Below are positions 358 through 26,800 of a DNA stretch of 64,000 nucleotides, in pieces; position 1 is the stretch's first letter, and each line of letters starts with the position of its first letter. A program made the translations under genes and the position numbers. The notes beneath the pieces are model-generated. The model saw only the letters and a list, made by a program, of their open reading frames with translations. It ran no database searches and had not been told where the DNA came from. Source of the DNA: Candidatus Poseidoniaceae archaeon (lineage in GTDB: Archaea > Thermoplasmatota > Poseidoniia > Poseidoniales > Poseidoniaceae); the NCBI GenBank assembly GCA_938084675.1, contig CALKGM010000004.1, positions 3,339 to 67,338 on the forward strand, in the 5' to 3' direction.

Positions 358-3300
358 TTATCCTTGACGCTGAAGCCATTGATGACCGTAATGCGTCCAT
401 TGTTCCATCGTCCAACCAGGCGGCAGGCCGTTTGGAGGCAGTGGTGGTCCTTGTGCAACAGGAAGTGTTGGCTGTGTAGGAGCGATGGGGTGTGTTGGGA
501 GCGGTAGCGGAGGCAAAGACTTCTCGGCCAACGGCAAGCCGGCTGGTGGCATTCCAGCCGGAGGCATCCCCGCAGGGGGTAATCTTGCCTGTGGCATACC
601 TGGTGGAAGGCCAGCGGGTACTGCTGCGGGAGCAGATGGCAGATCCATTGATTGCATGAGTGCTTTAGCAATCTCTTCCTGGCTGACTTCTCCACTTGTC
701 AAGTCATGAACTGCACTGCTGATGTCCAAAACTTCATCTCGCCTTGAACCCATGGTATCTGGATTGGTATGAGAATCGGGAGCCACAAGTTCCAATCCAT
801 CGTCTTGGAGCTCTCCTGATCGCTTCACTCGTCGAGCCACTACGGCCAAGACGAGGAACACCACAGCAAAGAGAGATACCGTAACACCTGTAGAAAGCCC
901 ACTAAGGAGGCCTTGGTTTCCAACTGCTGCCTTTGTGCTGGCATCAAGAGCATATGTGGTGATCACGTCATCCCCTGATGAAACCGTTATGCTAAGAGAA
1001 CCTGTTGCCCTTGAAACATCTTCCTTGGGCGCAAGCGTAACGGTGACAGTAACAGATTCACCAACTGCGAGTTCTGAAACCGATTCAGGAGAAACGGTGA
1101 TGGTCCAATCATTTCTTAGAGCACCATTCTTATCCAACATCTCTGCACCAATGGTACCGGTGAAAGGAATATTTCCATCATTCAAAAGAATAAAATTTTG
1201 GCTCGAGGATCCGTCCCGAGAGATATCCTCTAGAGGCCTGATCGTCTCATCTTCAACTGTTAGATTGGCATATGTAGATTCGAGAACACCAACCGTGACC
1301 ATCTGAGATGCCTCTGTGAAACGACCAGCATTGGTCCCATTGACCGAGACAAGGAGTTCAAAGGAACTTGGCGAAGCGGTCGCCTGAAGCGGTGGAATAA
1401 GACCGAGGCGGACCACTTTTTCTTCCCGAGGTTCAATGTAAATAACAGGATTAGCGAAACCTACCGACCAGCCGTCTGGAGTTAGGCCGTGTGTCCATTC
1501 CAAACCAAGGGCAGTATTTCCAGTATTTCTCAATGAAAATTCCCCGTAGGTAAATCGCTCGCTTATGGTGACGTCGATTTGGCCGTTTTCGGGACCCGAT
1601 AAACTGAGAGCCAATTCATCCCGGACAACTAGTTCAGTCACGTTTGAACGGAAATTTGATGATGAACGCTCCGTTCGGATAGTAAAGGTATTCGAATCAC
1701 CTTCTGCAGCTGTGATCGGTACTGTGAACACCAGCATAACAACGGTAGATTGGCCTGGCGGAATACTGAACCCTAGGGTGCGAGAATCGTTCTGGCCATC
1801 ATGGCTTACCCGAATCGCCCAGAGAGGATTAGACGGTTGAACTCGTACATCTAACGCAACAGCAAGGTTGCCTGTATTTTCTACTGTGAGATTCATGTAC
1901 AACTTTTGTCCACTATCGACTGCATTATCGCTGGACAAGTGGGAGGGGCCAACCCGTCCATCGTCGTCTGCGAGATGAACATCAAATGATTCCTGAGGCA
2001 ATACTTCAATGGATACAATTTCAGTGAAATTCATGGTCAGGTCAGTAAGTGACGTCACATAGCATGTTACTGTATCCGTGTCACCGGCAGCAGGAACGCC
2101 GCCCGCTACCAGAGGCACAATGATTCGAACCGCCATTGGTAAGTATTCCTGAATATTGAGAGGTTCAAAGTCCAGTTGTGATGAGTTGGAGCCGCCAAGC
2201 ATGACTTGCCATCGGTGCTCAGAAAAACATTCAACACTGTATTGTGCTGGTGCGTTCCCCGTGTTTTTGACGGAAATTGAGAAGAAACTTGACTCACCTG
2301 GCTCAGCCTCTAAGCCATTCGTCCCGGCAGCAACTACACTCACTTGGTCCAATTGTTCAACGACAATGTAAATCCGTTGACTATGGGCAACAGTTGGTTG
2401 GAATTCATAGCGTGCGGTAATATCAACAACATAGGTGCCAGCACGAACATAGCGTGGACTATCGGGGTTCGTTGTTAGGTCCGCATCGAGGTCTTCTAAG
2501 CGAAGATTGAGGGTGTTATTTGCATCCGCTGAGCCTTGGGCAGTAAGAATAAAATTAGTAGATTCGTCAAATGTTCGGCTCCACTGGTCTTGACTGGGAA
2601 GGAAAAAGTCTGCTCGTTCAGGAGAGGGGACTTGCACCATTGAGGAGGAAATGACGACTGATTGATTTCCTGTTCCTTCGTGAAGGACTGCCAGTGGAAT
2701 GTCAATTCCGGAGTCGTTGCGAACATCAAGAATCATGTTCGCATTTGATTCACGTTCTTCTGTGGTTTCAGGGAGGTCACCGTTATCGTCAGCAACAACA
2801 ACACGAACGCCTAACGCCATAACTTCGACATCAAGAGTGTAAACGTTGTTGTCCGTTCCTGTATTGGCATCGTTCATTTCAACGACTTGATCGGTTGTAT
2901 CAATTGAGATGCGAAGACTGTGAATGCCGGTTGTTGCGAATTGATGGTAAATTGTGATTGCGTCAAGTTGTCCAGGCTGCAAACCGTTTCGTGAGGCAGT
3001 GGTCAACGTTTGCTGGGTCGTCAGGTCCTCAAAGAGAACATCGAAACCTACTGATTGAGTGGTACCTTGGTTTACCCATGCAATACTGATGGCAATCAAA
3101 TCGTTGCGAAGTGGATTGACTGATGAAGGAACGATGCTTCCGTCAAAAACAGCGAGGTCTGCCTGTGGAGTCGGCGTAGCAACAGCCGACATAACCAGGC
3201 CAAAATCTTGAGTGGTTCCGCCACGATGAAGAACCTTTAGAATCCATTGACCTTGGCTGGCCGGAAGAGTGCCTGCAGGTATACGAACACGTTCGACGTT

Positions 3301-5334
3301 GTTGATATCATCAGCAGTTCCACCGGAAGTTGATTCACCCGATGAGAAGTGATTTCCAATCCACTCAACGCCGTTTGGGTCAACTAAAATCAAATCCATA
3401 TTATTGACCAAACGTGGTTGATTTTGAGGTGCGTTTGCACTACCGGCTTCATCACTCCATGCAAGCGTAATATCGATGCCGTGAGATGGGTCAAGTGTAA
3501 ACGAATAGAGAAGACCAAATCCTGGAGAGAGAGGCTTGTTGTCATCAAAGAAGGTGTTCAAAGGGGTTGTTCCATCCATCGGGAGAACAGTTCGTGACAG
3601 GTCTACCTGACCCCACCCCTCGTTTGCATTCGGGATATCTGGGGTTCCGAGGTCTTGAGCCCCGTTAATCATTGCAGCCTTGACAAGAGAACTGGAAGGG
3701 GAGCTAACACCTGCTTGCTCTCGAATGAATTCACGAGTCAATGCGGCAACACCTGATGCGACAGCAGTGGCTTGGGATGTTCCGGACAATTGCATGTAGT
3801 ACGAATTTCCTGTTGCATGAGAGCCTGTTAAACAGGATGGGCCCGCTGGGAATTTGGCTTCCTCGGCTAACCCAGAACAGACACCGACTCCAGGGGCAAC
3901 AAGGTCGGGCTTGATGCGCCCGTCAAGTGCAGGCCCATCTGAGGAAAAATTTGCGACTTCACCAGCTGCGACGGAACCATCAGCACCCGTAGTGGATGCA
4001 CCGATGGCGATAGTGTTTTTTGCCGTGGCGGGGGACGTGATCTTAGAAGCACCTTGTCCACCGTTATCTCCAATTGAGAAGATCGGAGTCATATCCGAGC
4101 GGTCGTTTACAAACTGGTCAACCGAACGTGCGTCGGCTGTATACTGACCGAAATTCCCGTTAAGTCCCCACGCATTTACGGTGATTCTTGCGGTCATTTG
4201 TTCTGCATCACGAAGAAGGTCGTAGATTGAGCCGATACGTCCGAACGCTCCAGTCGGGTCGTGTTCAAGGGCGTACATCACCAAATTTGCACTTGGGGCA
4301 ACCCCTCTTGCTGAAGAATCCCCAGAGCCGTTTCCAACAACGGTTACGGCAATGTGAGTACCATGACCTGAATTCGTGTCGTCAGGCGAGGGGTCAAGTC
4401 CAAACTGAGTGTATGTGGCCGCAACTCTTCCCGTTAAATCCGGGTGATTTTGGTCCAAGCCAGTGTCTGTAACCGCAATCATTTCACCTGAACCATCAAG
4501 CGTGAAGGTGGCGTTGTTGTTGACATCCTGAACCCCGGCGATTGACCAAGCAAGAGCGTTGTGAACACGAAGTTCAGCTGAGGGCTCGGTCCAAATGACT
4601 CGGCCATCATGAGCAATATTTCTGAGCAGCGTTAGGTCGTCCCCCTCAGAGATGACTGCTCGGCACAGCCACGCATCGCACCATGCCTCTTCTGCTCCGT
4701 AACGGACGAGGTCTGTTGCAAGCTCCGGATACCCGCCGAATCCCAAATCAGAGGCGGGAATCAATGTGATTGATGGGGTGGTTATTCCGTCATGAATCAA
4801 GTCGGGTGCTAGTCTCCATTGCGGTTGTTGGTGCCCTATCCATCGGATACGGTCGTCGTTTTCAAGCTGGACGTATGTGTCCATTGGAGGAGAAGGAAGA
4901 CGGACCAGCCATCCTTCATCATGGAAGAAGTCAAGCACTGTGAGGTCGTAATCTGTGTTCAGTGCTTGAAATGCGTCCCGGTTACCGTCGTGAAGTTGAA
5001 TCATAGCTAGGCCGGTAAGGCCTGCATCATTTTCTCGCGAAAATGAAGCAAGAACGTCTGGCCCTTCAGAAAATAAAGGGTCGAAACTTCCAGCAGCAAG
5101 GTGAATCATTCCTGTAGCAGGAGTCAACTCAACAGATACAAGGGATGCTTCAGGCATGGAACCCCACATCTCGGTTGCGAGCTCAAGACGTTCTTCTTCT
5201 GACATTTCTGGGGTCACAAAAGAAGGAATTTGATTGAAGTTGGTATCTGTCTCGATTGGTTGTTCAATCATGGTTGATAGAGGGGTCAGCACCATGAGCG
5301 CTAAGACAAAAACAAAGCCGAAATTGGAGCGCAT
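358..5334 (-). CDS. giant (1658 aa) membrane-anchored subtilisin-like (S8) serine protease with long beta-sandwich stalk
   Basis: N-terminal signal peptide (FGFVFVLALMVLTPLS). S8 catalytic triad motifs VTDTGLDQNHPDL (Asp), GHGTHIAVTVVGNG (His), LSGTSQATAVASGVAAL (Ser). About 1,000 aa of CARDB/NEW3-like repeats follow (e.g. FSLRNTGNTALGLEW..PDGWSV). C-terminal TM VTVSLFAVVFLVLAVV, then a 155-aa Pro-rich tail ending GWTMEQWTHYGHQWLQRQG. Confidence 0.85.
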   Translation of the reverse strand: MRSNFGFVFVLALMVLTPLSTMIEQPIETDTNFNQIPSFVTPEMSEEERLELATEMWGSMPEASLVSVELTPATGMIHLAAGSFDPLFSEGPDVLASFSRENDAGLTGLAMIQLHDGNRDAFQALNTDYDLTVLDFFHDEGWLVRLPSPPMDTYVQLENDDRIRWIGHQQPQWRLAPDLIHDGITTPSITLIPASDLGFGGYPELATDLVRYGAEEAWCDAWLCRAVISEGDDLTLLRNIAHDGRVIWTEPSAELRVHNALAWSIAGVQDVNNNATFTLDGSGEMIAVTDTGLDQNHPDLTGRVAATYTQFGLDPSPDDTNSGHGTHIAVTVVGNGSGDSSARGVAPSANLVMYALEHDPTGAFGRIGSIYDLLRDAEQMTARITVNAWGLNGNFGQYTADARSVDQFVNDRSDMTPIFSIGDNGGQGASKITSPATAKNTIAIGASTTGADGSVAAGEVANFSSDGPALDGRIKPDLVAPGVGVCSGLAEEAKFPAGPSCLTGSHATGNSYYMQLSGTSQATAVASGVAALTREFIREQAGVSSPSSSLVKAAMINGAQDLGTPDIPNANEGWGQVDLSRTVLPMDGTTPLNTFFDDNKPLSPGFGLLYSFTLDPSHGIDITLAWSDEAGSANAPQNQPRLVNNMDLILVDPNGVEWIGNHFSSGESTSGGTADDINNVERVRIPAGTLPASQGQWILKVLHRGGTTQDFGLVMSAVATPTPQADLAVFDGSIVPSSVNPLRNDLIAISIAWVNQGTTQSVGFDVLFEDLTTQQTLTTASRNGLQPGQLDAITIYHQFATTGIHSLRISIDTTDQVVEMNDANTGTDNNVYTLDVEVMALGVRVVVADDNGDLPETTEERESNANMILDVRNDSGIDIPLAVLHEGTGNQSVVISSSMVQVPSPERADFFLPSQDQWSRTFDESTNFILTAQGSADANNTLNLRLEDLDADLTTNPDSPRYVRAGTYVVDITARYEFQPTVAHSQRIYIVVEQLDQVSVVAAGTNGLEAEPGESSFFSISVKNTGNAPAQYSVECFSEHRWQVMLGGSNSSQLDFEPLNIQEYLPMAVRIIVPLVAGGVPAAGDTDTVTCYVTSLTDLTMNFTEIVSIEVLPQESFDVHLADDDGRVGPSHLSSDNAVDSGQKLYMNLTVENTGNLAVALDVRVQPSNPLWAIRVSHDGQNDSRTLGFSIPPGQSTVVMLVFTVPITAAEGDSNTFTIRTERSSSNFRSNVTELVVRDELALSLSGPENGQIDVTISERFTYGEFSLRNTGNTALGLEWTHGLTPDGWSVGFANPVIYIEPREEKVVRLGLIPPLQATASPSSFELLVSVNGTNAGRFTEASQMVTVGVLESTYANLTVEDETIRPLEDISRDGSSSQNFILLNDGNIPFTGTIGAEMLDKNGALRNDWTITVSPESVSELAVGESVTVTVTLAPKEDVSRATGSLSITVSSGDDVITTYALDASTKAAVGNQGLLSGLSTGVTVSLFAVVFLVLAVVARRVKRSGELQDDGLELVAPDSHTNPDTMGSRRDEVLDISSAVHDLTSGEVSQEEIAKALMQSMDLPSAPAAVPAGLPPGMPQARLPPAGMPPAGMPPAGLPLAEKSLPPLPLPTHPIAPTQPTLPVAQGPPLPPNGLPPGWTMEQWTHYGHQWLQRQG
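536..580 (-). repeat. imperfect 15-nt x3 tandem repeat encoding PPAGM-PPAGM-PPAGL
   Basis: The plus strand reads agccggctggtggcattccagccggaggcatccccgcagggggt, inside the cytoplasmic tail of the giant S8 protease. Confidence 0.7.
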
Positions 5335-9938: not shown

Positions 9939-10610
9939 GTGTGCGGACGATTTGCATTAGGGCGGCCCATTGAAGAAATTGCTAAGGAAATTCTTTGTGA
10001 ACCTCTCTCCGAATTTACACCCTTTGCACCCTCGTGGAATATATCCCCACAAGAATGGGTGCCTGTCATTACCCAAACTGGAGTCCATAACGAACAAAAT
10101 GTCCCTCGACACATGCGTTTGATGCGCTGGGGGTTACGACCTTCTTGGGCAAAGGCGTCGCCAAGAGAGCCCATCAATGCCAGAAGTGAAACCGCTCATG
10201 AAAAACCAATGTTTCGCAATGCATGGAAGCAACGCCGAGGGGTGATACCGGCTGAGGGGTGGTACGAATGGATGAATACACCTCAGGGGAAAGTACCGTG
10301 GTACCATTACCACATGGATGAATCAATCTGTTACATGGCGGTCCTGTGGGAATCATGGAATCATGATGGCTCTTCGTTGGAATCATTCTCAATATTGACT
10401 ACCGAAGCCAACGAAGACTGTATGGAGATTCATCAACGGATGCCTGTTCTTATTGAGACGCACGAGATTCAAGCATGGCTTAGCGGGTCATTGGTTTTGA
10501 CTCCAACATCTGAAGGACGAGTGGACCGTCATCCGGTCTCACAAAAAGTCAATAACGCTAGAAATGAAGGTCGAGAACTGGTCGAACCAATTCCAAGATT
10601 GTTTGATTAA
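9939..10610 (+). CDS. SOS-response-associated peptidase (SRAP / YedK / HMCES family, abasic-site DNA-protein crosslink)
   Basis: N-terminus M-CGRFAL with the invariant Cys2 nucleophile; ...MRWGL.P.W...INARSET...F motifs; 223 aa. GTG start preceded by GAGGT at 7 nt spacing. Confidence 0.85.
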   Translation: MCGRFALGRPIEEIAKEILCEPLSEFTPFAPSWNISPQEWVPVITQTGVHNEQNVPRHMRLMRWGLRPSWAKASPREPINARSETAHEKPMFRNAWKQRRGVIPAEGWYEWMNTPQGKVPWYHYHMDESICYMAVLWESWNHDGSSLESFSILTTEANEDCMEIHQRMPVLIETHEIQAWLSGSLVLTPTSEGRVDRHPVSQKVNNARNEGRELVEPIPRLFD

Positions 10611-11002
10611 GAGTATGGAACATACGAGCCGTCACTGTTTTTGCTGTGAGGAGTTGGCTCAAAACTGCCGTCACCCTTCTTTTTGTAGTGATATCCATCG
10701 GTGTGGTGAACCCACGTAAACGATTCATCCTCGTTAGAGGATGCATCAAGTTGGGGTTGAACTGCGGCAGGTACTTGCTCCGCTATACCATCATAATTGA
10801 CTGATTGGTCAGTTGCTGCTTCAACTTTAGAAGAACCATCACCGAATAATGCGAGGGCGTCTTTGTACGCCGAAGCGTCAACTGTTGTCGAAGGAGCCCG
10901 AGCATTCGGGTCTTCTCCCTTCTTGTACGTAATTGCAGCAGGCGGTGCCTCATCCAATTCAAGGACCTCTTGCTTTTTCTTAAAGGGCCAAATCGGAGCC
11001 AT
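10607..11002 (-). CDS. small acidic low-complexity protein with C-terminal WW/DUF2510-like aromatic motif (hypothetical)
   Basis: The ORF runs 10607..11068. ATG at 11068 would leave only 9 nt to the divergent gene at 11078, so the internal ATG 11002 (MAPIWPFKKK) is preferred. C-terminus reads FTWVHHTDGYHYKKKGDGSFEPTPHSKNSDGSYVPYS. No TM or signal peptide. Confidence 0.4.
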   Translation of the reverse strand: MAPIWPFKKKQEVLELDEAPPAAITYKKGEDPNARAPSTTVDASAYKDALALFGDGSSKVEAATDQSVNYDGIAEQVPAAVQPQLDASSNEDESFTWVHHTDGYHYKKKGDGSFEPTPHSKNSDGSYVPYS

Positions 11003-11077
11003 GGTCTTGCGAGTCCAACCCTGTTCATGAAACCTACGAAAGCGCATTGAACAAATTATGCAAGTCATTGAAAGGGA

Positions 11078-13573
11078 ATGTCGTATCGGAGAACCATGCG
11101 ATGGATAGGACTAGCCCTTCTTGTCATATTGCATACAATTGCACCAATGGCTCATGCTGGTTCAGAATCCAGTGCAAGGGAAGGAGAAATTGTAGGGATC
11201 TCAGGGCCAAGTGAAGTCATCGTTCACCCCAACGAAACCGTTAGTACATACGTCACACTTCACAACCTCGCTACCGTCAATCAGGAATTTACACTATCTG
11301 TGGTCTCAATTCCATCCGTATTGAATACTCAGAACTTACCGCTTGCTGAAGTTCTCGTGCCCAATCATCTCAAGCAGATGGTATTCGGCATTTCTGCCGA
11401 TGAGAACGCACCGTATGCACAGCATGAAGTTGAATTTCGTGTTACGTCGGATTATGATGAAACCTATTCACAATCTGTTTGGATGAACATCACTGTAGCA
11501 CCCTACTCCAATCTCAAATTTGGCTCTGAGGATCTAACGACATTGACCGTTGATGAATTGGTCAGAACAGGAGTTGCAGTCAACATAACCAACAATGCAT
11601 CGCTACCGGACAATGTTACCTTTGACCTCTACAGCCCTTCGGGTTGGAATTGGGGTTGGACCATAGATTCTAACGAGGAAGGGAATGCCTACATCAACCT
11701 CGACCCTGACAGTCTTGCTTACGTGTATTTTTGGGTGGACATACCAGCCGTTGAGAACGGGATGCCTCTAGCAGGAACTGGCCCACGATTCACATTAACT
11801 GCAATTTCAGGCCTGGATAAAGCGATGACTTCGTGGTCTTTTGACCTTCATATGAATGAAAAACGCAACGTGACCATTGATGAGGTTGAAGAGAATATTG
11901 AACTCGCTCCGGGTGAAGATGGCCGTATGTTGGTCTCAGTTCGAAACGTAGGAAATACTCCGAATCGATTGAATATTACCCTCCAAGGATTGAACGGAGA
12001 AGGAGAGAACTTGCCGGAGTACGCTAATTCTGACCGATTTAATTACAGTGGATGGACCGTAGCCCTCTTTGGAGGTCTTGAAGATGTGCTGCTTCAGCCT
12101 AACGAATCCAGAACCGTTGAGGTTGGTGTGCAGTCTCCAAATATATTCACCGGGGAATTAAATGTTGAATTGCAAGTTTTTGCAAATGGTGCTCAACAAC
12201 TAACCAAGACGACACGCCTCAAGGCAACCATCAATCGTAGCGTTGATGCAACCCTTTCATTCACCCAGGAAGGGTGTAACATGCTGTTCGTTGGAGAGCC
12301 ATGCCGCAGTACCTTGACGGTTGAAAATGGCGGAAATTCATACAACACATTCAGCCTTAGACTCAATGATGTATCTGACGAATTCAATGCATCCCTAGCC
12401 CAAGAATCCTTACTTGTCCAAGTCGGACAGGAAAAATCATTCTCTGACGTGTTCATCAATGTCACTCAAGGCACTCTTGCATTCACTTCAGGTGAAGTCA
12501 TTGTGGAACTCTTGGGTGATGACCTAACCGTTTTGGATAGTGTTAACATGCCCGTCAAAGCAGCTCCAATCGTAAAGTGGTCACTTAGCAATGTTGTCGA
12601 GGACGTCAATACGAAAAATAGGCTTTCAATATCGTTTGAAGTTCGTAATGATGGTAACGCGATAGATGGTTTTGTGGTCCAACTTCAGTCAACCCACTCA
12701 CTTCCAATGGGATTAATTCCTCCGCAAGGGGCAGTTTACGAAGACGATACGGAATACCCTCGCTCTTACCAACTAAATGGAGTTCCGTTGAACTCAAACC
12801 TTACCATCCGAGCATGGGTTGACCTTCCAACCGACCAAAAAACAAATGGAACGGTGTTCATCAATACTACCATCACCTCCATTTTCGCTCCCGAAGGGCA
12901 AATGTTCGTCCATACCTCCCAAGGGGACTATCTCGGAACGCCGTGGCGAGCTCTGGAAGAATCAGAGGAAGGAACAGATTGGGCCGAACTTGCTGCCACT
13001 TCATGGGCCTACACCAAGGCGTGGTCAGGCGTAATTTTCGCCATCATATTCTCGGGTTTGATCATTTACAAGGCCCTCACCGACCGACAACGCAGACTTG
13101 AAAATGATGCTATACTACCGTATCAGCAAGTTGAATCTGATGCTTCGGATTGGATGAATAAATTTGATCCTGCTCCTGCGTCACCCACTGAGCCCGTCAG
13201 GGTTGAAAAGGCACCTCAAGTCACAAGGGAATCATTTGAAGCAGTCTTCCGCCAACAAGCAGGAACATCAACACCTGCTGCTGAACCTGTTGACGAACGA
13301 CTCAGAGAAGCCGCAACACTGGTTCTTGATGCAAGAACAACGCAAGCGCGTTTGGAAAAAGCAGATCAATTGCTTGGAGAGATTCAAACAGAAGGTACGG
13401 CCATACCTCATCCACTCAACCAAAAATTGGAACCTCAAAGCCACTCAGCCAGCATTACGGTTCGCCAAGACCCACACAATGTCATGCCGACCACACCAGT
13501 GAAGCCAGCAGAGGTTGCACATGTTCCGCTGCCTGACGTAAATCAAGCGCATGATGACGATTTGGAATTCTAA
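11078..13573 (+). CDS. type-I membrane surface protein (831 aa) with CARDB/NEW3-like beta-sandwich repeats
   Basis: Signal peptide MRWIGLALLVILHTIAPMAHA. Repeats such as LVSVRNVGNTPNRLNITLQG...GWTVALFGG...LQPNESRTVEVGVQSP. TM WSGVIFAIIFSGLIIY, then a ~170-aa cytoplasmic tail ending DDDLEF. Many N-x-S/T sequons. Confidence 0.7.
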   Translation: MSYRRTMRWIGLALLVILHTIAPMAHAGSESSAREGEIVGISGPSEVIVHPNETVSTYVTLHNLATVNQEFTLSVVSIPSVLNTQNLPLAEVLVPNHLKQMVFGISADENAPYAQHEVEFRVTSDYDETYSQSVWMNITVAPYSNLKFGSEDLTTLTVDELVRTGVAVNITNNASLPDNVTFDLYSPSGWNWGWTIDSNEEGNAYINLDPDSLAYVYFWVDIPAVENGMPLAGTGPRFTLTAISGLDKAMTSWSFDLHMNEKRNVTIDEVEENIELAPGEDGRMLVSVRNVGNTPNRLNITLQGLNGEGENLPEYANSDRFNYSGWTVALFGGLEDVLLQPNESRTVEVGVQSPNIFTGELNVELQVFANGAQQLTKTTRLKATINRSVDATLSFTQEGCNMLFVGEPCRSTLTVENGGNSYNTFSLRLNDVSDEFNASLAQESLLVQVGQEKSFSDVFINVTQGTLAFTSGEVIVELLGDDLTVLDSVNMPVKAAPIVKWSLSNVVEDVNTKNRLSISFEVRNDGNAIDGFVVQLQSTHSLPMGLIPPQGAVYEDDTEYPRSYQLNGVPLNSNLTIRAWVDLPTDQKTNGTVFINTTITSIFAPEGQMFVHTSQGDYLGTPWRALEESEEGTDWAELAATSWAYTKAWSGVIFAIIFSGLIIYKALTDRQRRLENDAILPYQQVESDASDWMNKFDPAPASPTEPVRVEKAPQVTRESFEAVFRQQAGTSTPAAEPVDERLREAATLVLDARTTQARLEKADQLLGEIQTEGTAIPHPLNQKLEPQSHSASITVRQDPHNVMPTTPVKPAEVAHVPLPDVNQAHDDDLEF

Positions 13574-16536: not shown

Positions 16537-18603
16537 TCAAGCTTCAAGACGAATCACACGTTGACAACCTGCGCAAGCAAATCGGTGCGGGCGCTCTGTT
16601 GAAGTGACTGGGTTTGGAACCTGACATGCTGGACATGGAATCGTAGGATAGTTGTTTTGAGTTCTTCGTTTATTCCGTGGGCTCAGTCGAGGACTGGCTA
16701 TTGCAGTAACCCACCAAATCAAAGTGCTCGCAATCACAGCACCTCCAACAAAAATAGCCGGATAGCCAAGGATCAAGACAAGCCCAACTACCGGGATGAG
16801 AACGAGTTCAGCGTACAGTACGGTTCGCTTTCGTTGGCGGGTGATGCGCATGCCCACGATGAATGCACCAAGTAAACCAAATAGAGAAAGGAGAGTGAGT
16901 GGCATTGGAGTGAAGGACACTGCTGTTGTCGGCACAGAATTCAAGCGGAATGCTTCATCTTGCATGATACCTTCACCCTCTAGGGTAATCTGGTCCCCCC
17001 ATGGCATTCGAAGAACCGAGAGTTCAAATTGAGTTGATTCTCTCAAGACACTGTTACTGAGGGATGTAAATGCTGATGTTTTAGCGGTTAGTGATAGTGA
17101 AAAGGAACTCCAGAGCGGTGCTGGCTGTACCACGATGAATTGATTGACCAATTCCAATTGCGTCCCCTCTGCAACAACTTCCGTTGTAGAAAAGCGAAGG
17201 GTGACTGGATGGTTTACGACTGCAGTTTCACCGTTGAGGTCCAGGTCTATTTTCAACGAAGAAAATTCACGAAACGTTCCGAGCAAATCTTCAGATTGTA
17301 TTCCAAGACCGCCGGCAAGGTATTGTGGACCGAGGTTTATCATTTGCCGCTCAAACTCTCCAATCTCTGATTCCTCAATGGAGCGGCTCACTCTGTCTTC
17401 TTCAGAGACAGATCCCTCGGAAAAAGCCCTGAGCGTTACGGAAAGAGCAGGATTTTCATCACCAATATGGTCAAGACCCCACCGCATCCAAAACGCCATT
17501 TCATCATCAATTGTTAGAGTGGTAACTTTTCTTAGAAGCAGCGTATTTCCATCCTTTGAAAGGTCCATTTGGATGTTTACATCTAGGGAACTACCGTCAC
17601 CGTTTGTGCGTAGTGGTTCATCGGGAGGGTAGTAAGTTCCGGTCCCTGAGTCTGTGTCAAATGTTTCAATTTCAAACGTGGTGGAGCCAGTTAACGAAGG
17701 TTGGTCGGGTTGAAACTTCAGTTCCACCTCCACGGAGATGGTTTCGATACCACCAGCGGCTTTATCCCAGGTCCATGTGACACGGACGGTGTCACTTGAT
17801 GCTGTTTCAATTGGGTCTCCAGTAACCTCTTGGCCGTTAACATTGAGGGAAATTGAATCTGCAAGTGCTAACGTGGAAAGCCCCCATGGTGAATCAAGTT
17901 TTACAGCAAGGTAAACATCCGAACCTTCAATTTCTGGCGTCGGCATCATAATATCAAGAATTGGAAGTATTCCCTCAATCGATGAAGGATTATCTTCACC
18001 GCCCCAAAGGAATTTCAGTTCAGCATCGGTTCCTTCGGGGAACGAAAAGAGAAGTGTATCTGCTTTCAACTCAAGGGTAATGGATGAAGAGTCCACGATT
18101 TCAAATGAATCTTCAACCTCTATTGAGAAATCAAGACTACCTTTTCCTTGACCGAGAAACGACCCACCAGGATCGGTTTGGGCACTGTAGCTCTTTGAAC
18201 CAATTGCGATGGAAGCAGTGGCATTAATTTGGGCTCCCACTGCTCCACTGACTTCATATTCCATGGAGAAGGTCCAGGTTGAGGAAGGTACATCCCCGCC
18301 CCATGTATTCGAAAGAGTCCACTTACCCACGGTTTCTTGAGAATTGATTGAGTTCTTCATTGAGACCGCTTGTGAATCAGTGCTTAACTCAGCAAAAAAT
18401 GGAGTCAATTGCTTGTTGCTATCGCTGCCAAGGAGGTATAATTTGACTTCGGAAGCATCGCAACAAACAATGACGTCGTCCGATTCATCTGCGGCTTGCA
18501 CCGTTGGTGAAACAAATGGCAGAACCAGTGTTCCAACAAGAATGAAGATGATGAATGATGCAGTACGCATAAGACCGACATGACGGCGAAAGTTCTCCGG
18601 CAC
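16537..18603 (-). CDS. membrane protein with large extracytoplasmic domain, C-terminal TM helices and terminal zinc ribbon (hypothetical)
   Basis: Signal/anchor FIIFILVGTLVLPFVSPTVQA. About 540-aa Ser/Thr/Glu-rich ectodomain. TM helices (PLTLLSLFGLLGAFIVGM; LVLIPVVGLVLILGYPAIFVGGAVIASTLIWWV). C-terminal CPACQ...x17...CAGCQ zinc-ribbon. Confidence 0.6.
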   Translation of the reverse strand: MPENFRRHVGLMRTASFIIFILVGTLVLPFVSPTVQAADESDDVIVCCDASEVKLYLLGSDSNKQLTPFFAELSTDSQAVSMKNSINSQETVGKWTLSNTWGGDVPSSTWTFSMEYEVSGAVGAQINATASIAIGSKSYSAQTDPGGSFLGQGKGSLDFSIEVEDSFEIVDSSSITLELKADTLLFSFPEGTDAELKFLWGGEDNPSSIEGILPILDIMMPTPEIEGSDVYLAVKLDSPWGLSTLALADSISLNVNGQEVTGDPIETASSDTVRVTWTWDKAAGGIETISVEVELKFQPDQPSLTGSTTFEIETFDTDSGTGTYYPPDEPLRTNGDGSSLDVNIQMDLSKDGNTLLLRKVTTLTIDDEMAFWMRWGLDHIGDENPALSVTLRAFSEGSVSEEDRVSRSIEESEIGEFERQMINLGPQYLAGGLGIQSEDLLGTFREFSSLKIDLDLNGETAVVNHPVTLRFSTTEVVAEGTQLELVNQFIVVQPAPLWSSFSLSLTAKTSAFTSLSNSVLRESTQFELSVLRMPWGDQITLEGEGIMQDEAFRLNSVPTTAVSFTPMPLTLLSLFGLLGAFIVGMRITRQRKRTVLYAELVLIPVVGLVLILGYPAIFVGGAVIASTLIWWVTAIASPRLSPRNKRRTQNNYPTIPCPACQVPNPVTSTERPHRFACAGCQRVIRLEA

Positions 18604-22406: not shown

Positions 22407-24623
22407 ATGGGAAGTATAAGGACGCCATCATTGGCCTTCTTTTTGGTGCTTCTTATGGCCACATCCGCACTGCCACTAGTCGGCGCATCTGAATCGGAAC
22501 TGATGATTCTTGAAGGACGAATTTTTACTGTGTCATTGGACGAAAACACCTCATATGAAACTTCAATTGATGTTGAAGAAAACAGTTTCATTCAACTTAC
22601 ACTCAAGTGCGAAGCATGCACTGGAAGTCTGATTGGAGATAACACCAATACATCGGGAACAGATCGAATGGAATTGTACCCTACCAGCGCCACATCAGTT
22701 ACAATGAGCATTTCAACCACGGTATCAGAAACCATCCGATTCACCCTCTACCATGGAGAAGTTGATTCCTTCCCTCATGTCCGACCCGGCCCTCTAGAGG
22801 CTTCACCGCATCACCCAATCGGGATATGCACGGACGCAGCGGTTTGCATGGACACGCTGCGGGGCACATTAGCATCGGTTGTTAATGACAGCACTGACCT
22901 GGATGTCTTGCAGTCAGGTGTAATCAACACGTCAGCTGATGAATACATGACGATTGATGTAAGCAAGGGAGATACTCTTGAATGGCAGTGGCTAGATACG
23001 ACCGAGGAAACAACCGCTACGGTGTACTTTCAAAATCAGACCGATGAACTCATGTTTGAAACAACATTATCCAGTTCCACAGGCCATACTGAACTCAACG
23101 GCTTACCAGTCCCAGTTGAATGGTGGATTGCTCCTGATTACGGACGCTTTATTGTGCGATTGTCGAGCCCAGTTTCGCCTGCTCTTTGGACAGCTCACGC
23201 CATGATCCACACCGATACTCCGACCACTCCGCTGATTGGTCAAGACCTCATCTATGGAGCAGAACTGCTTGGACACGGCTCTACAGTGTCCGTCTTTGAT
23301 TGGAATGATACTCAGTCGCTTCAACTTCACAGCCGTTTAGGCGAAATCCATCTTCGTGTTGACCAGTTGCTTAACGGGGCGTGGGTGACAGGTTTATCCG
23401 ACACCATTGCGAAAGGAGATTCTCGGAACATTTACCCCTACCCGGGGATTGTTGGAGGCCGAATTGTCATCAACGACACCTCAGTGTTCTCACTCGAATT
23501 ACAAACTCGCGAATACTCAGATAACAACGCTTGGCTTGAAGCACCGTCGTATATTCCCGCCACATTAGAGGTTGACAACTCCACCTGGCCAACAGTTGAC
23601 CTTACCGATTCAGGTTCCGGGGAACTAACCCTAGCCGTCCATGACACCACCGACACCTATCGATTTGTCGTTGATGGCTGGGAAGATTCAGTTCACTTCA
23701 TACAGTTCACCATCACGGGAAATATTTCAGAAATTGAGGCTCAAATGTGGGATGTTGACCAACTTACATCCCAAGTTCTTGATACGGCCCCGTCTGTAAT
23801 CGCCGGAGATTCCCTACGGGTCAGTATGCAGGTGGGAAGAGGAACACACTATCTCCAAATCAGAGCCATCAATTCAAGCGACGTCACACAGCATGATTGG
23901 GGTTCTGATGTACCATCTATTGACTACACCCTCACACCCAGCTATTCATTGATTGATGAAGGGGAAGAGCCCTGGTTCCCCCCAAGCGAAGATGCTGTGT
24001 TTTGGGGTGGAGTTGCTCGTTGGGTACTCGGGACTGCATTCCTCATTCCGGTGGCGTATCTTCTCATTCACCTGCAGCGAAGCCGCACCTATGGCAGAGA
24101 GATTTTTTCAAAGAAAGAGCGACTTGAATGGTATAGAACGAGATTGGATTCCGGAGAATCAAATGTCGTTGCATCACAGAAGGATTTGGTTCGAGCCCTC
24201 CATGCAGTTGCTCAACTTGAATGGGAAGACGGTTTGGACACATGGGGACAGCCGTCACTTCACCACCGAACCGAAGGTTTGGACCTCGCTGTTTGGAGAA
24301 TAGACAAACGGATGGCTAAGACACATGGTTCTTGGCCTCTTGTCATCGGTGTGCATGTCCTTGATGGAGAATGGGACCTCGCAGCCATCCGATTTGATTC
24401 ACCCGGTGGAGCGGCCTACACGGTTCGTAATGTTGAACCGAGATTTTTGTTCCAGGGAGAAGAAGTCTTCCTTGATACCCTGAAACAGGGACACCGTATG
24501 TTCCTCATGGTTGAACTGGAGGGAGATGCACCATCGGTAGACATTGAACTCAACGGCAGAATGAACACTGTACCGTTTGCATCACGAATACCCACAACCT
24601 TCGTCCGAGACGAAGAAGAATGA
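22407..24623 (+). CDS. type-I membrane protein, ~530-aa ectodomain plus ~190-aa cytoplasmic domain (hypothetical)
   Basis: Signal peptide SLAFFLVLLMATSALPLVGA; single TM WVLGTAFLIPVAYLLIHL; C-terminal soluble domain ending FVRDEEE. No catalytic motif recognised. Confidence 0.6.
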   Translation: MGSIRTPSLAFFLVLLMATSALPLVGASESELMILEGRIFTVSLDENTSYETSIDVEENSFIQLTLKCEACTGSLIGDNTNTSGTDRMELYPTSATSVTMSISTTVSETIRFTLYHGEVDSFPHVRPGPLEASPHHPIGICTDAAVCMDTLRGTLASVVNDSTDLDVLQSGVINTSADEYMTIDVSKGDTLEWQWLDTTEETTATVYFQNQTDELMFETTLSSSTGHTELNGLPVPVEWWIAPDYGRFIVRLSSPVSPALWTAHAMIHTDTPTTPLIGQDLIYGAELLGHGSTVSVFDWNDTQSLQLHSRLGEIHLRVDQLLNGAWVTGLSDTIAKGDSRNIYPYPGIVGGRIVINDTSVFSLELQTREYSDNNAWLEAPSYIPATLEVDNSTWPTVDLTDSGSGELTLAVHDTTDTYRFVVDGWEDSVHFIQFTITGNISEIEAQMWDVDQLTSQVLDTAPSVIAGDSLRVSMQVGRGTHYLQIRAINSSDVTQHDWGSDVPSIDYTLTPSYSLIDEGEEPWFPPSEDAVFWGGVARWVLGTAFLIPVAYLLIHLQRSRTYGREIFSKKERLEWYRTRLDSGESNVVASQKDLVRALHAVAQLEWEDGLDTWGQPSLHHRTEGLDLAVWRIDKRMAKTHGSWPLVIGVHVLDGEWDLAAIRFDSPGGAAYTVRNVEPRFLFQGEEVFLDTLKQGHRMFLMVELEGDAPSVDIELNGRMNTVPFASRIPTTFVRDEEE

Positions 24624-25812: not shown

Positions 25813-26745
25813 TCAAAGATCAAGACCACAATTCGGACAAAATCGTTCGCCAAATGTGACCGATGAGTTGCACCCTCTACAAACAAGGCCGGAGGAGGGA
25901 GTATGTTGAGGCTGAGATACCGTGGTACCGAGCATGGCCATGGACTCGTAAGACTCTGATGGATTTGTCTGGGAGGGGCTTCCTGGAATACTTGCAGTTT
26001 TCAGTTCTTTTCCAGATGAAGTGATGACGGTTTTGACGCCTCCTGAATCGCTGTAACTTGTCATGTTAACTTCGACATCGTCCCGCTGGCCTTCAATTCG
26101 GAGGGGTGCAACCGGACGTTGTGCGGTCACTGGAGAGGAGGCAGCAGCCGCTGCAAGGCGATTCCTACGTTGCTCTTCTCGTTCCGCTCTCGCATCTCTG
26201 CCAAACAGTGAAGAAATCGCATCAAAGAACCGGTCCATCGGAGTTGGCTTTCGGACTGCTCCAATGGTTCCATGGATTTGCTCATCATCAAATGAGGCTT
26301 GTCCGCTTACGCGGGCGTTGGCCTTGACGACATGTCTTGCCTCATTGAGCATGCTGACTTCAATTTCATTATCTTCAGAGACTTGCATTTCTGGTGCTTC
26401 TTTAGAAAGATTGGAAATCGGTTGTGAAAGACCTGCTTTCGTAACATTATCCATTGTCGGGTCGAGTTCGACTTGAGTATTCCAAACACCACGTTCCTCA
26501 GCCGCATAGACGTGTTTAATCTTCTTCATAGCCTTTACACGATTGTATTCAAAATCCTTGACAACACGAGTTTTTCTGAATACAATGAATCCGAGAATGA
26601 GTGATAGGCCGTACCAAGCATACATAATTCGGGGTTCAAGTTCAAACATTGCCCTAAGAGGAGGGATGGAAAAATGGCAAGCCCCCATAATCAAGAGAGG
26701 CAACAATGCCAGACCTCGCGATGTGAAACTACGTGGACGTTCCAT
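25813..26745 (-). CDS. membrane protein with two N-terminal TM helices, low-complexity linker and C-terminal zinc ribbon (hypothetical)
   Basis: TM helices LALLPLLIMGACHFSI and MYAWYGLSLILGFIVF; C-terminal CRGCNSSVTFGERFCPNCG. The ORF-track start 26856 would overlap the upstream GT2 gene by 56 nt, so ATG 26745 (MERPRSF) is preferred. Confidence 0.55.
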   Translation of the reverse strand: MERPRSFTSRGLALLPLLIMGACHFSIPPLRAMFELEPRIMYAWYGLSLILGFIVFRKTRVVKDFEYNRVKAMKKIKHVYAAEERGVWNTQVELDPTMDNVTKAGLSQPISNLSKEAPEMQVSEDNEIEVSMLNEARHVVKANARVSGQASFDDEQIHGTIGAVRKPTPMDRFFDAISSLFGRDARAEREEQRRNRLAAAAASSPVTAQRPVAPLRIEGQRDDVEVNMTSYSDSGGVKTVITSSGKELKTASIPGSPSQTNPSESYESMAMLGTTVSQPQHTPSSGLVCRGCNSSVTFGERFCPNCGLDL

Positions 26746-26800
26746 ATGATTCAGTTTCCTGTTAGCAACTCTACTCAAGTATGTATGGGCTTGTTGTGCC

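What the first reader, a model, noticed from the sequence alone, without database searches (positions are those of the whole stretch)
358..825. Three giant surface proteins at separate loci share one cytoplasmic tail design: TM helix, acidic patch, Pro/Ala-rich linker, terminal PxGW..W aromatic motif
Read directly from the three C-termini. (1) 358..825: ...VTVSLFAVVFLVLAVVARRV-KRSGELQDDGLE...RLPPAGMPPAGMPPAGLP...LPPLPLP...GPPLPPNGLPPGWTMEQWTHYGHQWLQRQG*. (2) 31135..31404: ...FVIALISVSFGLWAMVM-QRRMLNPEEDDEVDQTD...TPAPAPAPPAPN...VPPPIPPTGLPDGWTPDQWNSYGWQYIDALTK*. (3) 49730..49972: ...IVGAIIVLLGVGAFFFV-EFEEIPDVSEEDDEN...ELPPQESPQSVAVPEAAAAPAETSQHPGWIWDQATNQWAPDPNYSPEQ*. The ectodomains are unrelated (S8 protease on a CARDB-like stalk; Asp-box protein; parallel beta-helix), yet the tails are colinear, so the tail looks like a portable module. 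With N-terminal signal peptides the tails should be cytoplasmic (type I topology). The terminal (L/H)P(P/D)GW-x3-4-QW...(Y)G.Q(W/Y) resembles the short aromatic hairpins of WW or DUF2510-type (GWYPDP...YWDG..W) modules. It sits directly after poly-Pro stretches (PPLP, PPxG) of the kind such folds bind. Possible roles are a sorting or retention signal, a self-clustering device, or a docking site that ties envelope proteins to a cytoplasmic partner. It is not PGF-CTERM/archaeosortase-like, because the tails are 80 to 155 aa rather than a short basic stub. I do not recognise it as a named archaeal signal.
Basis: partly seen in the sequence, partly recalled or inferred. Interest (0 to 1): 0.7.

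Follow-up and report, generated by a model that had tools for sequence, protein, structure and literature searches.

The report
Shared cytoplasmic tail tag, marine archaea
Many unrelated cell-surface proteins of the abundant ocean archaea Poseidoniales (Marine Group II) end, on the inner side of the membrane, in the same undescribed 30-residue proline-plus-tryptophan mini-domain, which suggests that an unknown intracellular system holds or sorts much of the cell's surface proteome.

Summary
The three quoted C-termini are exact; all lie on the minus strand. Tails 1 (358..5334) and 2 (31135..36537) end in one homologous module, (G/A)PP[LIV]PxxGLPxGW[T]M[E/D]QWx[H/Y/W]YGxx[W/Y]Lxxxx*. A degenerate DNA pattern for its core matched at least 120 genome loci, nearly all Poseidoniales MAGs. 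120 of 122 matches are in frame and most lie 20-23 residues before the stop codon. 113 of 121 have a TM helix 35-140 aa upstream. An exhaustive HMM search found 639 protein clusters. The module sits on at least 10 unrelated ectodomain families. It has no match in Pfam, NCBIfam or PDB, and I found no paper describing it. AlphaFold and i,i+4 covariation indicate a polyproline segment followed by an aromatic alpha-helix, not a WW/DUF2510 hairpin. Tail 3 (49730..54160) has the same layout but a different terminal element, [H/Y]PGWxWDxxxNxW[V/I]PD. This is a predicted Trp-zipper-like beta-hairpin, conserved in its own orthologues. Its gene is always followed by an HTH-STAND-TPR regulator gene. Most likely function of the module, by inference: a cytoplasmic protein-protein docking or clustering knob. 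No partner was identified.

The parts
358..5334 (-). Protein 1, 1658 aa: signal peptide, subtilase (Peptidase_S8) plus CARDB/Ig-like stalk, TM helix, cytoplasmic tail ending in the GWT module
   Evidence: ORF list, translation, Pfam S8 E=2e-45 and CARDB
835..888 (-). Protein 1 TM helix GVTVSLFAVVFLVLAVVA
817..834 (-). Protein 1 basic stop-transfer stretch RRVKRS (positive-inside)
   Evidence: this is the general pattern, with a mean of 2.3 K/R in the 10 aa after the TM helix in 113 relatives
451..816 (-). Protein 1 acidic, Pro/Ala-rich, presumably disordered linker (122 aa)
   Evidence: linkers of relatives are 13% P, 12% A and 17% D+E, with mean net charge -9; pLDDT of about 60 in the part that was modelled
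361..450 (-). Protein 1 GWT module GPPLPPNGLPPGWTMEQWTHYGHQWLQRQG: PPII-type segment, turn, then an N-capped aromatic helix
   Evidence: pattern hit at 386-423; profile E=6e-17; AlphaFold pLDDT 84-89 with helix MEQWTHYGHQWLQRQ
31135..36537 (-). Protein 2, about 1795 aa with no Pfam domain: signal peptide, large ectodomain, TM helix, tail ending in the GWT module
   Evidence: orthologues L045, L118 and L111 keep the module
31405..31473 (-). Protein 2 TM helix LFSITLFVIALISVSFGLWAMVM
31234..31404 (-). Protein 2 basic stretch QRRM followed by an acidic Pro/Ala-rich linker
31138..31233 (-). Protein 2 GWT module VPPPIPPTGLPDGWTPDQWNSYGWQYIDALTK
   Evidence: pattern hit at 31166-31203; profile E=1e-13
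49730..54160 (-). Protein 3, about 1468 aa: signal peptide (ASA/VNE), beta-helix-like and Ig-like ectodomain, TM helix, and a tail with its own conserved motifs. It is not a GWT-module carrier.
49973..50041 (-). Protein 3 TM helix LLTIILIVGAIIVLLGVGAFFFV
49886..49972 (-). Protein 3 acidic patch with the conserved EFEE...EDPYAWAK motif
   Evidence: conserved in 56 orthologous loci
49733..49801 (-). Protein 3 terminal motif HPGWIWDQATNQWAPDPNYSPEQ, a predicted Trp-zipper-like beta-hairpin (WIWD / QWAP)
   Evidence: consensus [HY]PGWxWDxxxNxW[VI]PD in orthologues; single-sequence AlphaFold gives strands at residues 41-44 and 49-52, with pLDDT 87 and 79 for the last two 10-residue blocks
47182..49716 (-). 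HTH-STAND(AAA)-TPR protein, 844 aa, 14 bp downstream of protein 3 on the same strand; candidate reader of tail 3 (inferred)
   Evidence: Pfam; the adjacency is kept in 55 of 56 orthologous loci across both families

Best explanation
Tails 1 and 2 end in a previously undescribed C-terminal mini-domain of about 30 residues that occurs across the Poseidoniales. I call it the GWT module here: (G/A)PP[LIV]PxxGLPxGW-T-M-[E/D]-Q-W-x-[H/Y/W]-Y-G-x-x-[W/Y]-L-x(4-7)-stop.

Shown:
- It occurs only at the end of the cytoplasmic tail of single-pass type I membrane proteins.
- It lies 35-140 residues beyond the TM helix. A short basic stop-transfer stretch follows the helix, then an acidic, Pro/Ala/Glu-rich linker.
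- The ectodomains are unrelated to one another: subtilases, CARDB/Ig stalks, RCC1 propellers, TSP3 repeats and domains with no annotation.
- It is found in both families of the order, so it predates their split.
- It evolves vertically within each protein family and stays under strong constraint.

Predicted: a polyproline-II-type segment folds back through the GxGW turn onto, or lies beside, a threonine-capped amphipathic helix that carries a Trp/Tyr/Trp-Leu stripe. This would be a PP-fold- or Trp-cage-like knob.

Inferred mechanism: the knob is a protein-protein docking unit at the end of a flexible tether. Through it many different surface proteins are held by one shared cytoplasmic or inner-leaflet partner, for retention, positioning or organisation of the envelope in an archaeon whose surface seems to be built of giant membrane-anchored proteins. 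The partner is unknown.

Tail 3 is a parallel case with a different terminal element, a Trp-zipper-like hairpin. Its likely reader is the HTH-STAND-TPR protein encoded immediately downstream.
For: Real and non-random:
- The pattern occurs 2 times in the window and 0 times in shuffles.
- It matches at least 120 genome loci, and 117 of the 120 are labelled Poseidoniales, Thermoplasmatota or Euryarchaeota MAGs.
- 120 of 122 matches are in frame, and 105 of 121 proteins end 20-23 aa after the motif proline.
- Positions that the search pattern did not fix are still conserved: P-8 111/121, P-7 110, [LIV]-6 117, P-5 119, G-2 119, [LI]-1 119, M+5 96, [WY]+15 116, L+16 101.
- The module profile finds 307 proteins at E<=0.01, best 2.6e-15, in 5.8e9 sequences. 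It finds 639 clusters at E<=1e-3 in an exhaustive search of 1.84e9 representatives, almost always ending at the C-terminus.

Topology: 113 of 121 carriers have a TM helix 35-140 aa upstream, median 76; the other 8 are cut by the locus edge. The stretch after the TM is basic and the linker is acidic, with mean net charge -9. Full-length representatives have a signal peptide and one TM helix.

Portability: there are at least 10 BLAST-unrelated ectodomain clusters with different Pfam content. Identity at unconstrained module positions is 45% between families and 57% within them.

Structure: AlphaFold with 110 sequences gives pLDDT 84-89 over the module and a helix at MEQW...RQ. The top APC-corrected covarying pairs in 329 unique modules are i,i+4: 13-17, 10-14, 15-19, 14-18 and 6-10.

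Binding surface: conserved residues (M5, E6, Q7, W8, [H/Y/W]10, Y11, G12, [W/Y]15, L16) cover more of the helix circumference than one PPII strand can bury. This leaves a conserved exposed face (my inference).

Not described: no match in Pfam, NCBIfam, PDB sequences or Foldseek, and no paper found.
Against: - No partner was identified. No neighbouring gene is shared between loci of different carrier families.
- No multimer prediction was available, and the organism is uncultured.
- I did not inspect the 3D coordinates of the model. Packing of the PPII segment on the helix is inferred from the high pLDDT of a non-regular segment and from weak couplings of -10/-9 with +18.
- The covariation is confounded by family structure.
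- Residues P0, G2, W3, T4, Q7, W8, Y11 and G12 are invariant partly because the DNA pattern required them. The profile hits relax this only slightly (T/S at +4).
- The number of carriers per genome is unknown.
Confidence: 0.45

Rival explanations
1. Homotypic zipper. The Trp-striped helices of several tails wrap around the polyproline segment of another tail, as the cholinesterase C-terminal tetramerisation helices do around a polyproline peptide. The surface proteins would then cross-link each other into clusters or a sub-membrane mesh without a separate partner.
For: - Each tail carries both elements: a PP[LIV]PxxGLP strand and a helix with W+8 and W/Y+15 one heptad apart, plus Y+11.
- Linkers are 13% proline.
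- A precedent exists: the C-terminal 40 residues of butyrylcholinesterase form a tetramerisation domain glued by a polyproline-rich peptide, with Kd about 1e-12 M (PMC6157292). The Trp-heptad geometry of that complex is from my own knowledge (Dvir et al. 2004).
- No conserved partner gene lies nearby.
Against: - There is no sequence match to the cholinesterase domain in Pfam or PDB.
- The helix is only about 15 residues, against about 35 in the cholinesterase domain.
- The monomer AlphaFold model already places the module's own PPII segment with pLDDT 84. That fits a closed intramolecular fold.
- Some tails have almost no proline outside the module, for example L003.
Confidence: 0.2
2. Biogenesis, sorting or turnover signal. 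The module is read once, by a chaperone, a membrane protease (LonB or a rhomboid-type enzyme), the proteasome-activating ATPases or a vesicle-loading machinery. It would control insertion, quality control, shedding or export of giant surface proteins rather than anchoring them.
For: - The position is strictly C-terminal, as in other proteome-wide prokaryotic tags.
- Carriers are exclusively secreted type I proteins.
- Other Poseidoniales membrane proteins also end in short recurrent terminal elements (EEE*, DDLDL*, zinc ribbons), which hints at a C-terminal 'code'.
Against: - A subfamily tolerates about 30 extra residues after the module, so a free C-terminus at a fixed distance is not needed.
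- The long acidic tether and a folded knob are not typical of degrons.
- No processing enzyme gene is linked.
Confidence: 0.15
3. Membrane-interface anchor. The Trp/Tyr-rich amphipathic helix lies in the inner-leaflet interface and pins the tail back to the membrane.
For: The helix has interfacial aromatic residues (W, Y, W/Y, L) on one face, with mean hydrophobic moment 0.33.
Against: - The helix plus the protein end has a mean net charge of -1.4, is flanked by Q/N/D/E and has no basic collar.
- Mean hydrophobicity is -0.08.
- The conserved PPII strand, Gly turn and N-cap are not explained.
Confidence: 0.05
4. One reading: the terminal motif of tails 1 and 2 is a WW- or DUF2510-type aromatic beta-hairpin that binds the adjacent poly-Pro stretches.
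For: 'GLPxGW' equals the canonical start of WW domains. The best PDB profile hits, which are not significant, are SAV1 WW domains at E=0.3-2. Tail 3 is indeed predicted as a hairpin.
Against: - There is no Pfam hit to WW, DUF2510 or GYF at E<=10.
- Only 17-20 residues follow the Trp, too few for a three-stranded WW sheet. There is no second Trp at +20-22 and no terminal Pro.
- AlphaFold predicts a helix, and the covariation is i,i+4, not i,i+2.
Confidence: 0.03
5. Chance resemblance of low-complexity Pro-rich tails.
For: The linkers themselves are low-complexity and cannot be aligned between families.
Against: There are hundreds of in-frame C-terminal occurrences restricted to one archaeal order, with E-values down to 1e-18 in 1.8e9 proteins.
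Confidence: 0.01

Closest known systems
Proteome-wide C-terminal sorting tags of prokaryotes (PGF-CTERM/archaeosortase, PEP-CTERM/exosortase, LPXTG/sortase, GlyGly-CTERM/rhombosortase)
   Same: It is a short, lineage-specific C-terminal element shared by many otherwise unrelated secreted or surface proteins, and it can be used to define a 'surfaceome'.
   Different: Those tags have the order motif, TM helix, short basic stub. The motif lies on the outer side and is cleaved. Here the order is TM helix, basic stretch, 35-140 aa cytoplasmic linker, then a folded 30-residue module on the inner side. No processing enzyme is linked and there is no evidence of cleavage.
Cholinesterase C-terminal tetramerisation (WAT) helix with a polyproline (PRAD) peptide
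   Same: A C-terminal amphipathic helix with Trp residues one heptad apart works together with a polyproline-II strand as an assembly device (PMC6157292; structural detail from my own knowledge).
   Different: There is no sequence relationship. The helix is half as long. Here the helix and the PPII strand are adjacent in one chain and cytoplasmic. Oligomerisation is untested.
PP-fold (pancreatic polypeptide/NPY) and Trp-cage miniproteins
   Same: They have a PPII segment, a tight turn and an aromatic amphipathic helix of similar lengths that can fold autonomously in about 30 residues. This is inferred from the AlphaFold secondary structure and confidence.
   Different: There is no homology: no Pfam Hormone_3 hit and no Foldseek match. 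Those are secreted hormones or designed peptides. The fold here is predicted, not solved.
Composite Pro-rich strand plus C-terminal helix motifs (MIM2+MIM1) of ESCRT-III/IST1 that bind MIT domains
   Same: A flexible linker, then a proline-rich strand, then an amphipathic helix at the extreme C-terminus together act as a docking unit for a helical-bundle domain (my own knowledge).
   Different: The consensus differs: there is no (D/E)xxLxxRLxxL(K/R) and no [LV]Px[VL]P...[LV]P. The carriers are surface proteins, not ESCRT-III. Whether Poseidoniales have MIT-domain proteins was not examined.
Mycoplasma terminal-organelle proteins with acidic proline-rich (APR) domains and EAGR boxes
   Same: An acidic Pro-rich region is followed by an aromatic/Gly-rich box on adhesin-associated proteins of a cell without a rigid wall, and links surface adhesins to an internal cytoskeleton (my own knowledge).
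   Different: There is no Pfam EAGR_box hit. Those are bacterial, and many of the proteins are cytosolic rather than type I.
WW domain / tryptophan-zipper hairpins (relevant to tail 3)
   Same: Tail 3 ends in W-x-W, a four-residue turn containing Asn, then W-x-P, predicted as a two-stranded hairpin. Tails 1 and 2 share only 'LPxGW' with WW strand 1.
   Different: There is no WW HMM hit. There are two strands, not three. The tail 3 motif is family-specific and not portable in the sample examined.

Membership tests
WW domain (PF00397) | Match to the family profile | tested here: not met
   hmmscan of the three tails and of the terminal peptides at E<=10 found 0 families. A PDB profile search gives only the LPxGW stub of SAV1 WW domains at E=0.3-2.
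WW domain (PF00397) | Two Trp about 20-22 residues apart, a C-terminal Pro and a three-stranded antiparallel sheet | tested here: not met
   Only 17-20 residues follow the first Trp. AlphaFold predicts a helix. Covariation is i,i+4.
DUF2510 / GYF / GYF_2 | Match to the family profile | tested here: not met
   0 families at E<=10
PGF-CTERM and other archaeosortase/exosortase/sortase tags | Signature motif directly followed by a TM helix and a short basic stub at the extreme C-terminus | tested here: not met
   Here the TM helix comes first and is followed by a tail of 35-140 aa plus 30 aa. NCBIfam, which holds those models, gives no hit.
PGF-CTERM and other sortase-type tags | Dedicated processing enzyme co-occurring in the genome or neighbourhood | tested here: inconclusive
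   No neighbour is shared between carrier families in 120 loci. Whole genomes could not be read.
Cholinesterase tetramerisation domain (AChE_tetra, WAT) | Match to the family profile | tested here: not met
   No Pfam or PDB-sequence hit
Cholinesterase tetramerisation domain (AChE_tetra, WAT) | Four helices assembled around one PPII peptide | not testable with these tools
   No multimer prediction was available.
PP-fold (Hormone_3) | Match to the family profile | tested here: not met
   No Pfam hit and no Foldseek PDB match
PP-fold (Hormone_3) | PPII segment packed antiparallel on an amphipathic helix | tested here: inconclusive
   A helix is predicted and the non-regular PPII segment has pLDDT 84. 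Couplings of -10/-9 with +18 are weak. I did not inspect the model coordinates.
GWT module (family defined here) | PP[LIV]PxxGLPxGW[TS]x[ED]QWx[HYW]YGxx[WY]L within about 25 aa of the stop codon, 35-140 aa after a single C-terminal TM helix | tested here: met
   Proteins 1 and 2 of the window meet it. Protein 3 does not.

The most novel reading that the evidence does not exclude
The GWT module is the address tag of an undiscovered archaeal system that couples the surface proteome to the cell interior. Dozens of giant, unrelated envelope proteins would be tied through flexible acidic tethers either to one sub-membrane scaffold or to each other through PPII/Trp-helix zippers. That would give a planktonic archaeon with no known wall a cortex-like, receptor-tail-based envelope organisation otherwise associated with eukaryotes. 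Tail 3 together with its conserved HTH-STAND-TPR neighbour would be a second, signalling-type use of the same tail design.
Probability: 0.3. Interest if true: 0.85.

Novelty: new variant of a known kind. Interest (0 to 1): 0.68.

Why it matters
Poseidoniales (Marine Group II) are among the most abundant archaea in the surface ocean and have no cultured representative, so their cell envelope is essentially unknown.

A conserved cytoplasmic tag shared by proteases, adhesin-like proteins and unannotated giant proteins offers three things:
- It is a sequence handle for listing the surface proteome of these organisms directly from metagenomes.
- It is close to a lineage-diagnostic marker.
- It yields a concrete, testable prediction that a shared intracellular partner or self-assembly organises the envelope.

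Proteome-wide C-terminal tags known in prokaryotes work on the outer face and are cleaved. A folded tag on the inner face, at the end of a long tether, would be a different logic for archaea. A 30-residue autonomously folding PPII-helix unit would also interest miniprotein design.

Tried and rejected
1. Reading the given coordinates on the plus strand gave only stop-ridden frames. The genes are on the minus strand.
2. Pfam and NCBIfam on the tails and terminal peptides at permissive E found nothing.
I repeated it with a longer alignment. That search returned mostly short gene fragments and was of little use for domain architecture.
4. Foldseek of the 50-residue model against the PDB gave no match at E<=10. 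This is expected for a miniprotein.
5. A PDB sequence profile search gave only non-significant LPxGW stubs of WW and MBD domains.
6. A neighbourhood analysis of 120 loci looked for a partner gene shared between carrier families. It found none; every neighbour cluster is family-specific synteny.
7. A viral contig scan for the module gave 0 hits.
8. BLAST tested whether the window's other tailed proteins (11078, 16537, 22407, 25813, 36594, 55621) are relatives of carrier families. None are.
9. Four literature searches, for the motif strings and for Poseidoniales/MGII tail motifs, found nothing relevant.
10. I considered and set aside these ideas:
 - Myb/SANT-like 'GWTxEE...YG...W': the spacing is wrong.
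 - LPXTG-like sortase site: wrong side of the membrane and wrong order of elements.
 - Ribosome-stalling poly-Pro: does not explain the conserved helix.
Full report
OBSERVATION. The window has 48% G+C. Its closest relatives are Poseidonia (Marine Group II-a) MAGs, with up to 96-99% amino-acid identity for the two genes compared. The three features lie on the minus strand: ORFs 358..5334 (1658 aa), 31135..36537 (1800 codons from a GTG; the likely start is the Met at codon 6) and 49730..54160 (1476 aa). The quoted C-termini are exact. Protein 1 is a subtilase (Peptidase_S8, E=2e-45) on a CARDB/Ig-like stalk. Protein 2 has no Pfam domain. Protein 3 has only weak Ig-like hits. Each protein has a signal-like N-terminus, one TM helix near the C-terminus and a tail of 158, 89 or 80 residues.

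IS IT MORE THAN CHANCE? I back-translated PxGWTx(D/E)QWxxYG into a degenerate DNA pattern.
- It matches twice in the window, in tails 1 and 2, and never in 100 shuffles.
- It never matches in 2.9 million viral contigs.
- 117 of the 120 loci are labelled Poseidoniales, Poseidoniaceae, Thalassarchaeaceae or generic Euryarchaeota/Thermoplasmatota MAGs. The other three carry bacterial labels. At least one of them, L041, has a tail almost identical to that of a Poseidonia locus (L043) and a neighbouring ORF like those of Poseidoniales loci L011 and L080. I infer these are mis-binned contigs.
- 120 of 122 matches are in frame inside a long ORF, and in 105 of 121 the protein ends 20-23 residues after the motif proline.
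- Positions that the pattern left free are nevertheless conserved: P-8, P-7, [LIV]-6, P-5, G-2, [LI]-1, M+5, [WY]+15 and L+16, each in 80-98% of sequences.

The consensus is (G/A)PP[LIV]PxxGLPxGW[T]M[E/D]QWx[H/Y/W]YGxx[W/Y]L followed by 4-7 polar residues and the stop codon. A profile of the module finds 307 proteins at E<=0.01 (best 2.6e-15) in 5.8e9 sequences. In an exhaustive HMMER pass over 1.84e9 cluster representatives it finds 639 clusters at E<=1e-3 and 452 at E<=1e-10, and the match nearly always ends at the C-terminus.

ANATOMY OF THE CARRIERS.
- In 113 of 121 carriers a TM helix lies 35-140 residues (median 76) upstream of the module. The other eight ORFs are cut by the edge of the fetched block.
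- The ten residues after the helix hold on average 2.3 Lys/Arg.
- The linker that follows is 13% Pro, 12% Ala and 17% Asp+Glu, with mean net charge -9. It is negative in 96% of cases.
- Full-length representatives show a signal peptide and exactly this single C-terminal anchor. No soluble or multi-pass carrier was seen.

The ectodomains include secreted-type domains: S8, CARDB, TSP3, RCC1 propellers and ephrin-receptor-like repeats. With those outside, the tail must be cytoplasmic. This topology is inferred from sequence, not measured.

Ectodomains fall into at least 10 BLAST-unrelated clusters. Several clusters, for example the subtilase cluster that holds protein 1, contain members from both Poseidoniaceae and Thalassarchaeaceae. 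The tag therefore predates the split of the two families. Module sequences carry family-specific signatures such as ...KWYGHEYLAKYG or ...VAYGHLWWEQN. They are 57% identical within families and 45% between families at unconstrained positions. This indicates vertical inheritance under strong purifying selection rather than recent shuffling or gene conversion. About nine carriers have roughly 30 extra residues after the module, ending in LLDDLD[LF]. The module therefore does not need to be at a fixed distance from a free C-terminus.

STRUCTURE.
- AlphaFold2 with a 110-sequence alignment gives pLDDT of about 60 for the linker and 84-89 for the module. It predicts an alpha-helix over MEQWTHYGHQWLQRQ, preceded by a non-regular but confidently placed GPPLPPNGLPPGWT.
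- Independently, in 329 unique modules the five strongest APC-corrected covarying pairs are all i,i+4 within +6..+19: 13-17, 10-14, 15-19, 14-18 and 6-10. They include an E14-K18 pair. That is a helix signature, although family structure confounds it.
- Thr+4 with Glu+6 and Gln+7 fits a helix N-cap. Gly+2 and Gly-2 fit tight turns (inference).
- The lengths of the PPII strand (9 residues) and the helix (15 residues) match a closed PP-fold- or Trp-cage-like hairpin. Weak couplings of -10/-9 with +18 point the same way. I did not inspect the model coordinates, so this packing is inferred.
- Foldseek against the PDB and a PDB sequence profile search give nothing significant. The best hits (E 0.3-2) are just the 'LPxGW' start of SAV1 WW domains and 'LPEGWT' of the MeCP2 MBD.
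- Pfam (including WW, DUF2510, GYF, AChE_tetra, Hormone_3 and EAGR_box) and NCBIfam give no hit.

TAIL 3 IS A DIFFERENT ELEMENT. The module profile does not list protein 3 among the window's 762 six-frame ORFs even at E<=1000. Orthologues of protein 3 in 56 Poseidoniales genomes (30-96% identity over the last 366 aa) keep their own tail: FFFVEFEE, then EDPYAW[AG]K, a Pro/Ala/Gln linker, and [H/Y]PGWxWDxxxN[Q/K]W[V/I]PD at the end. Single-sequence AlphaFold predicts a two-stranded hairpin, WIWD-QATN-QWAP, with pLDDT 87 and 79 in the last two 10-residue blocks. In about 0.9 Mb of other Poseidoniales DNA no other ORF ended in this motif, so it is not evidently portable.

The gene directly downstream on the same strand is 47182..49716. 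It encodes an HTH + STAND AAA + TPR protein and follows the protein 3 gene in 55 of 56 loci across both families. It is better conserved (54-98% identity) than the end of protein 3. A TPR sensor reading this tail is an attractive hypothesis but is untested. Conserved regional synteny is the alternative.

MECHANISM. A real, ancient, strongly constrained, cytoplasmic and portable module is shown. The helix is supported by two independent predictions. The function is inferred.

I favour a protein-protein docking knob on a flexible acidic tether that connects many surface proteins to a shared intracellular partner (confidence about 0.45). Conserved residues cover more of the helix than its own PPII strand can bury. 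The module is nearly as conserved between unrelated carriers as within families. It occurs only on type I surface proteins.

The main rival (0.2) is homotypic assembly. Its precedent is the cholinesterase C-terminal tetramerisation domain, which is glued by a polyproline peptide (PMC6157292). Here both elements sit in one chain.

A biogenesis, sorting or turnover signal (0.15) cannot be excluded.

A membrane-interface helix is unlikely: net charge is -1.4, there is no basic collar, and mean hydrophobicity is -0.08.

No partner gene is linked to carriers of different families.

KNOWN OR NEW? Nothing in Pfam (2025 copy), NCBIfam (2026), PDB sequences or structures, or the full-text library matches. 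The closest kind is the proteome-wide C-terminal tag of prokaryotic surface proteins (PGF-CTERM and similar). The architecture is inverted, however: TM helix first, then a long cytoplasmic linker, then a folded tag on the inner face. There is no sign of a processing enzyme. I file it as a new variant of that kind. If a dedicated cytoplasmic scaffold exists, the system could turn out to be categorically new.

LIMITS. Invariance of eight core residues is partly imposed by the search pattern. The per-genome count is unknown. Taxonomic labels of MAGs are coarse, so presence in MGIII or other Thermoplasmatota was not resolved. Topology, fold and function are predictions only.

Noticed in passing
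window 47182..49716 (-) next to 49730..54160 (-); loci L121-L175: The gene for the tail 3 protein is followed 14 bp downstream (about 80-100 bp in MGIIb) by an 844-aa HTH-STAND(AAA_16/22)-TPR protein. This holds in 55 of 56 orthologous loci across both Poseidoniales families. The regulator is more conserved (54-98% identity) than the end of the surface protein. It may be a transmembrane sensing pair (TPR reads the tail) or plain synteny.
   Followed up: partly
loci L001-L120; window 22407..24623 (+): 'EEE' is the commonest C-terminal tripeptide among 683 non-overlapping Poseidoniales ORFs: 20 ORFs against about 0.2 expected by chance. 28 ORFs end in EE, in 12 of 240 clusters. Many are 8-11-TM transporters. 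Window ORF 22407..24623 ends ...VRDEEE*.
   Followed up: partly
window 11078..13573 (+); L031, L049, L063, L067, L073, L085, L090, L110, L120: There is an acidic-hydrophobic C-terminal tip. A subfamily of module carriers has about 30 extra residues ending LLDDLDL*/DDLDF*. An unrelated 831-aa type I protein of the window, with a cytoplasmic tail of about 170 aa, ends ...HDDDLEF*. This is reminiscent of SSB and FtsZ C-terminal hub peptides (from memory, not tested).
   Followed up: partly
window 16537..18603 (-) and 25813..26856 (-): Two further signal-peptide/TM proteins end in cytoplasmic zinc-ribbon-like CxxC...CxxC motifs (weak Pfam DZR/Zn_ribbon hits for the second). All seven long-tailed membrane proteins of the window (six of them with a single C-terminal anchor) end in some recognisable terminal element: 2 GWT modules, 1 hairpin, 2 zinc ribbons, 1 acidic tip and 1 EEE.
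   Followed up: partly
window 55621..63903 (-): This is a 2760-aa protein. An N-terminal STT3/AglB-like oligosaccharyltransferase membrane domain is fused to a giant CarboxypepD_reg/CARDB ectodomain. It ends in a TM helix plus a short basic stub (…KTARSGRSGSKF*), a classical short-stub anchor unlike the long tails.
   Followed up: no
window 10607..11068 (-): A small, mostly disordered ORF (about 130-153 aa) ends FTWVHHTDGYHYKKKGDGSFEPTPHSKNSDGSYVPYS. It looks like a WW-type aromatic hairpin but has no Pfam or NCBIfam hit. I considered it as a soluble hairpin protein and did not pursue it.
   Followed up: no
L038, L065 (same ectodomain cluster as L003, L032, L064, L066): A divergent version of the module (…DDPRRP[QP]GWTDEQWxHYGP…GGG*) lacks the PPLP..GL strand. 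It occurs within a family of about 300-430-aa proteins whose other members carry the canonical module. This is natural variation that could be used to map which half of the module is essential.
   Followed up: no
window 43404..47181 (+): A cluster of archaeal type IV pilin-like/DUF7289 genes lies beside the STAND-TPR gene. The last of them (46705..47181) is also syntenic in 50 of 56 orthologous loci.
   Followed up: partly
L038 (Flammeovirgaceae MAG), L041 (Verrucomicrobiales MAG), L053 (Yoonia MAG), L159 (Deltaproteobacteria SAG): These contigs carry typical Poseidoniales genes (module carriers or the protein 3 / TPR pair) but sit in bins labelled as bacteria. They are probably mis-binned or contaminating contigs. 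The module could serve as a lineage marker to flag them.
   Followed up: partly
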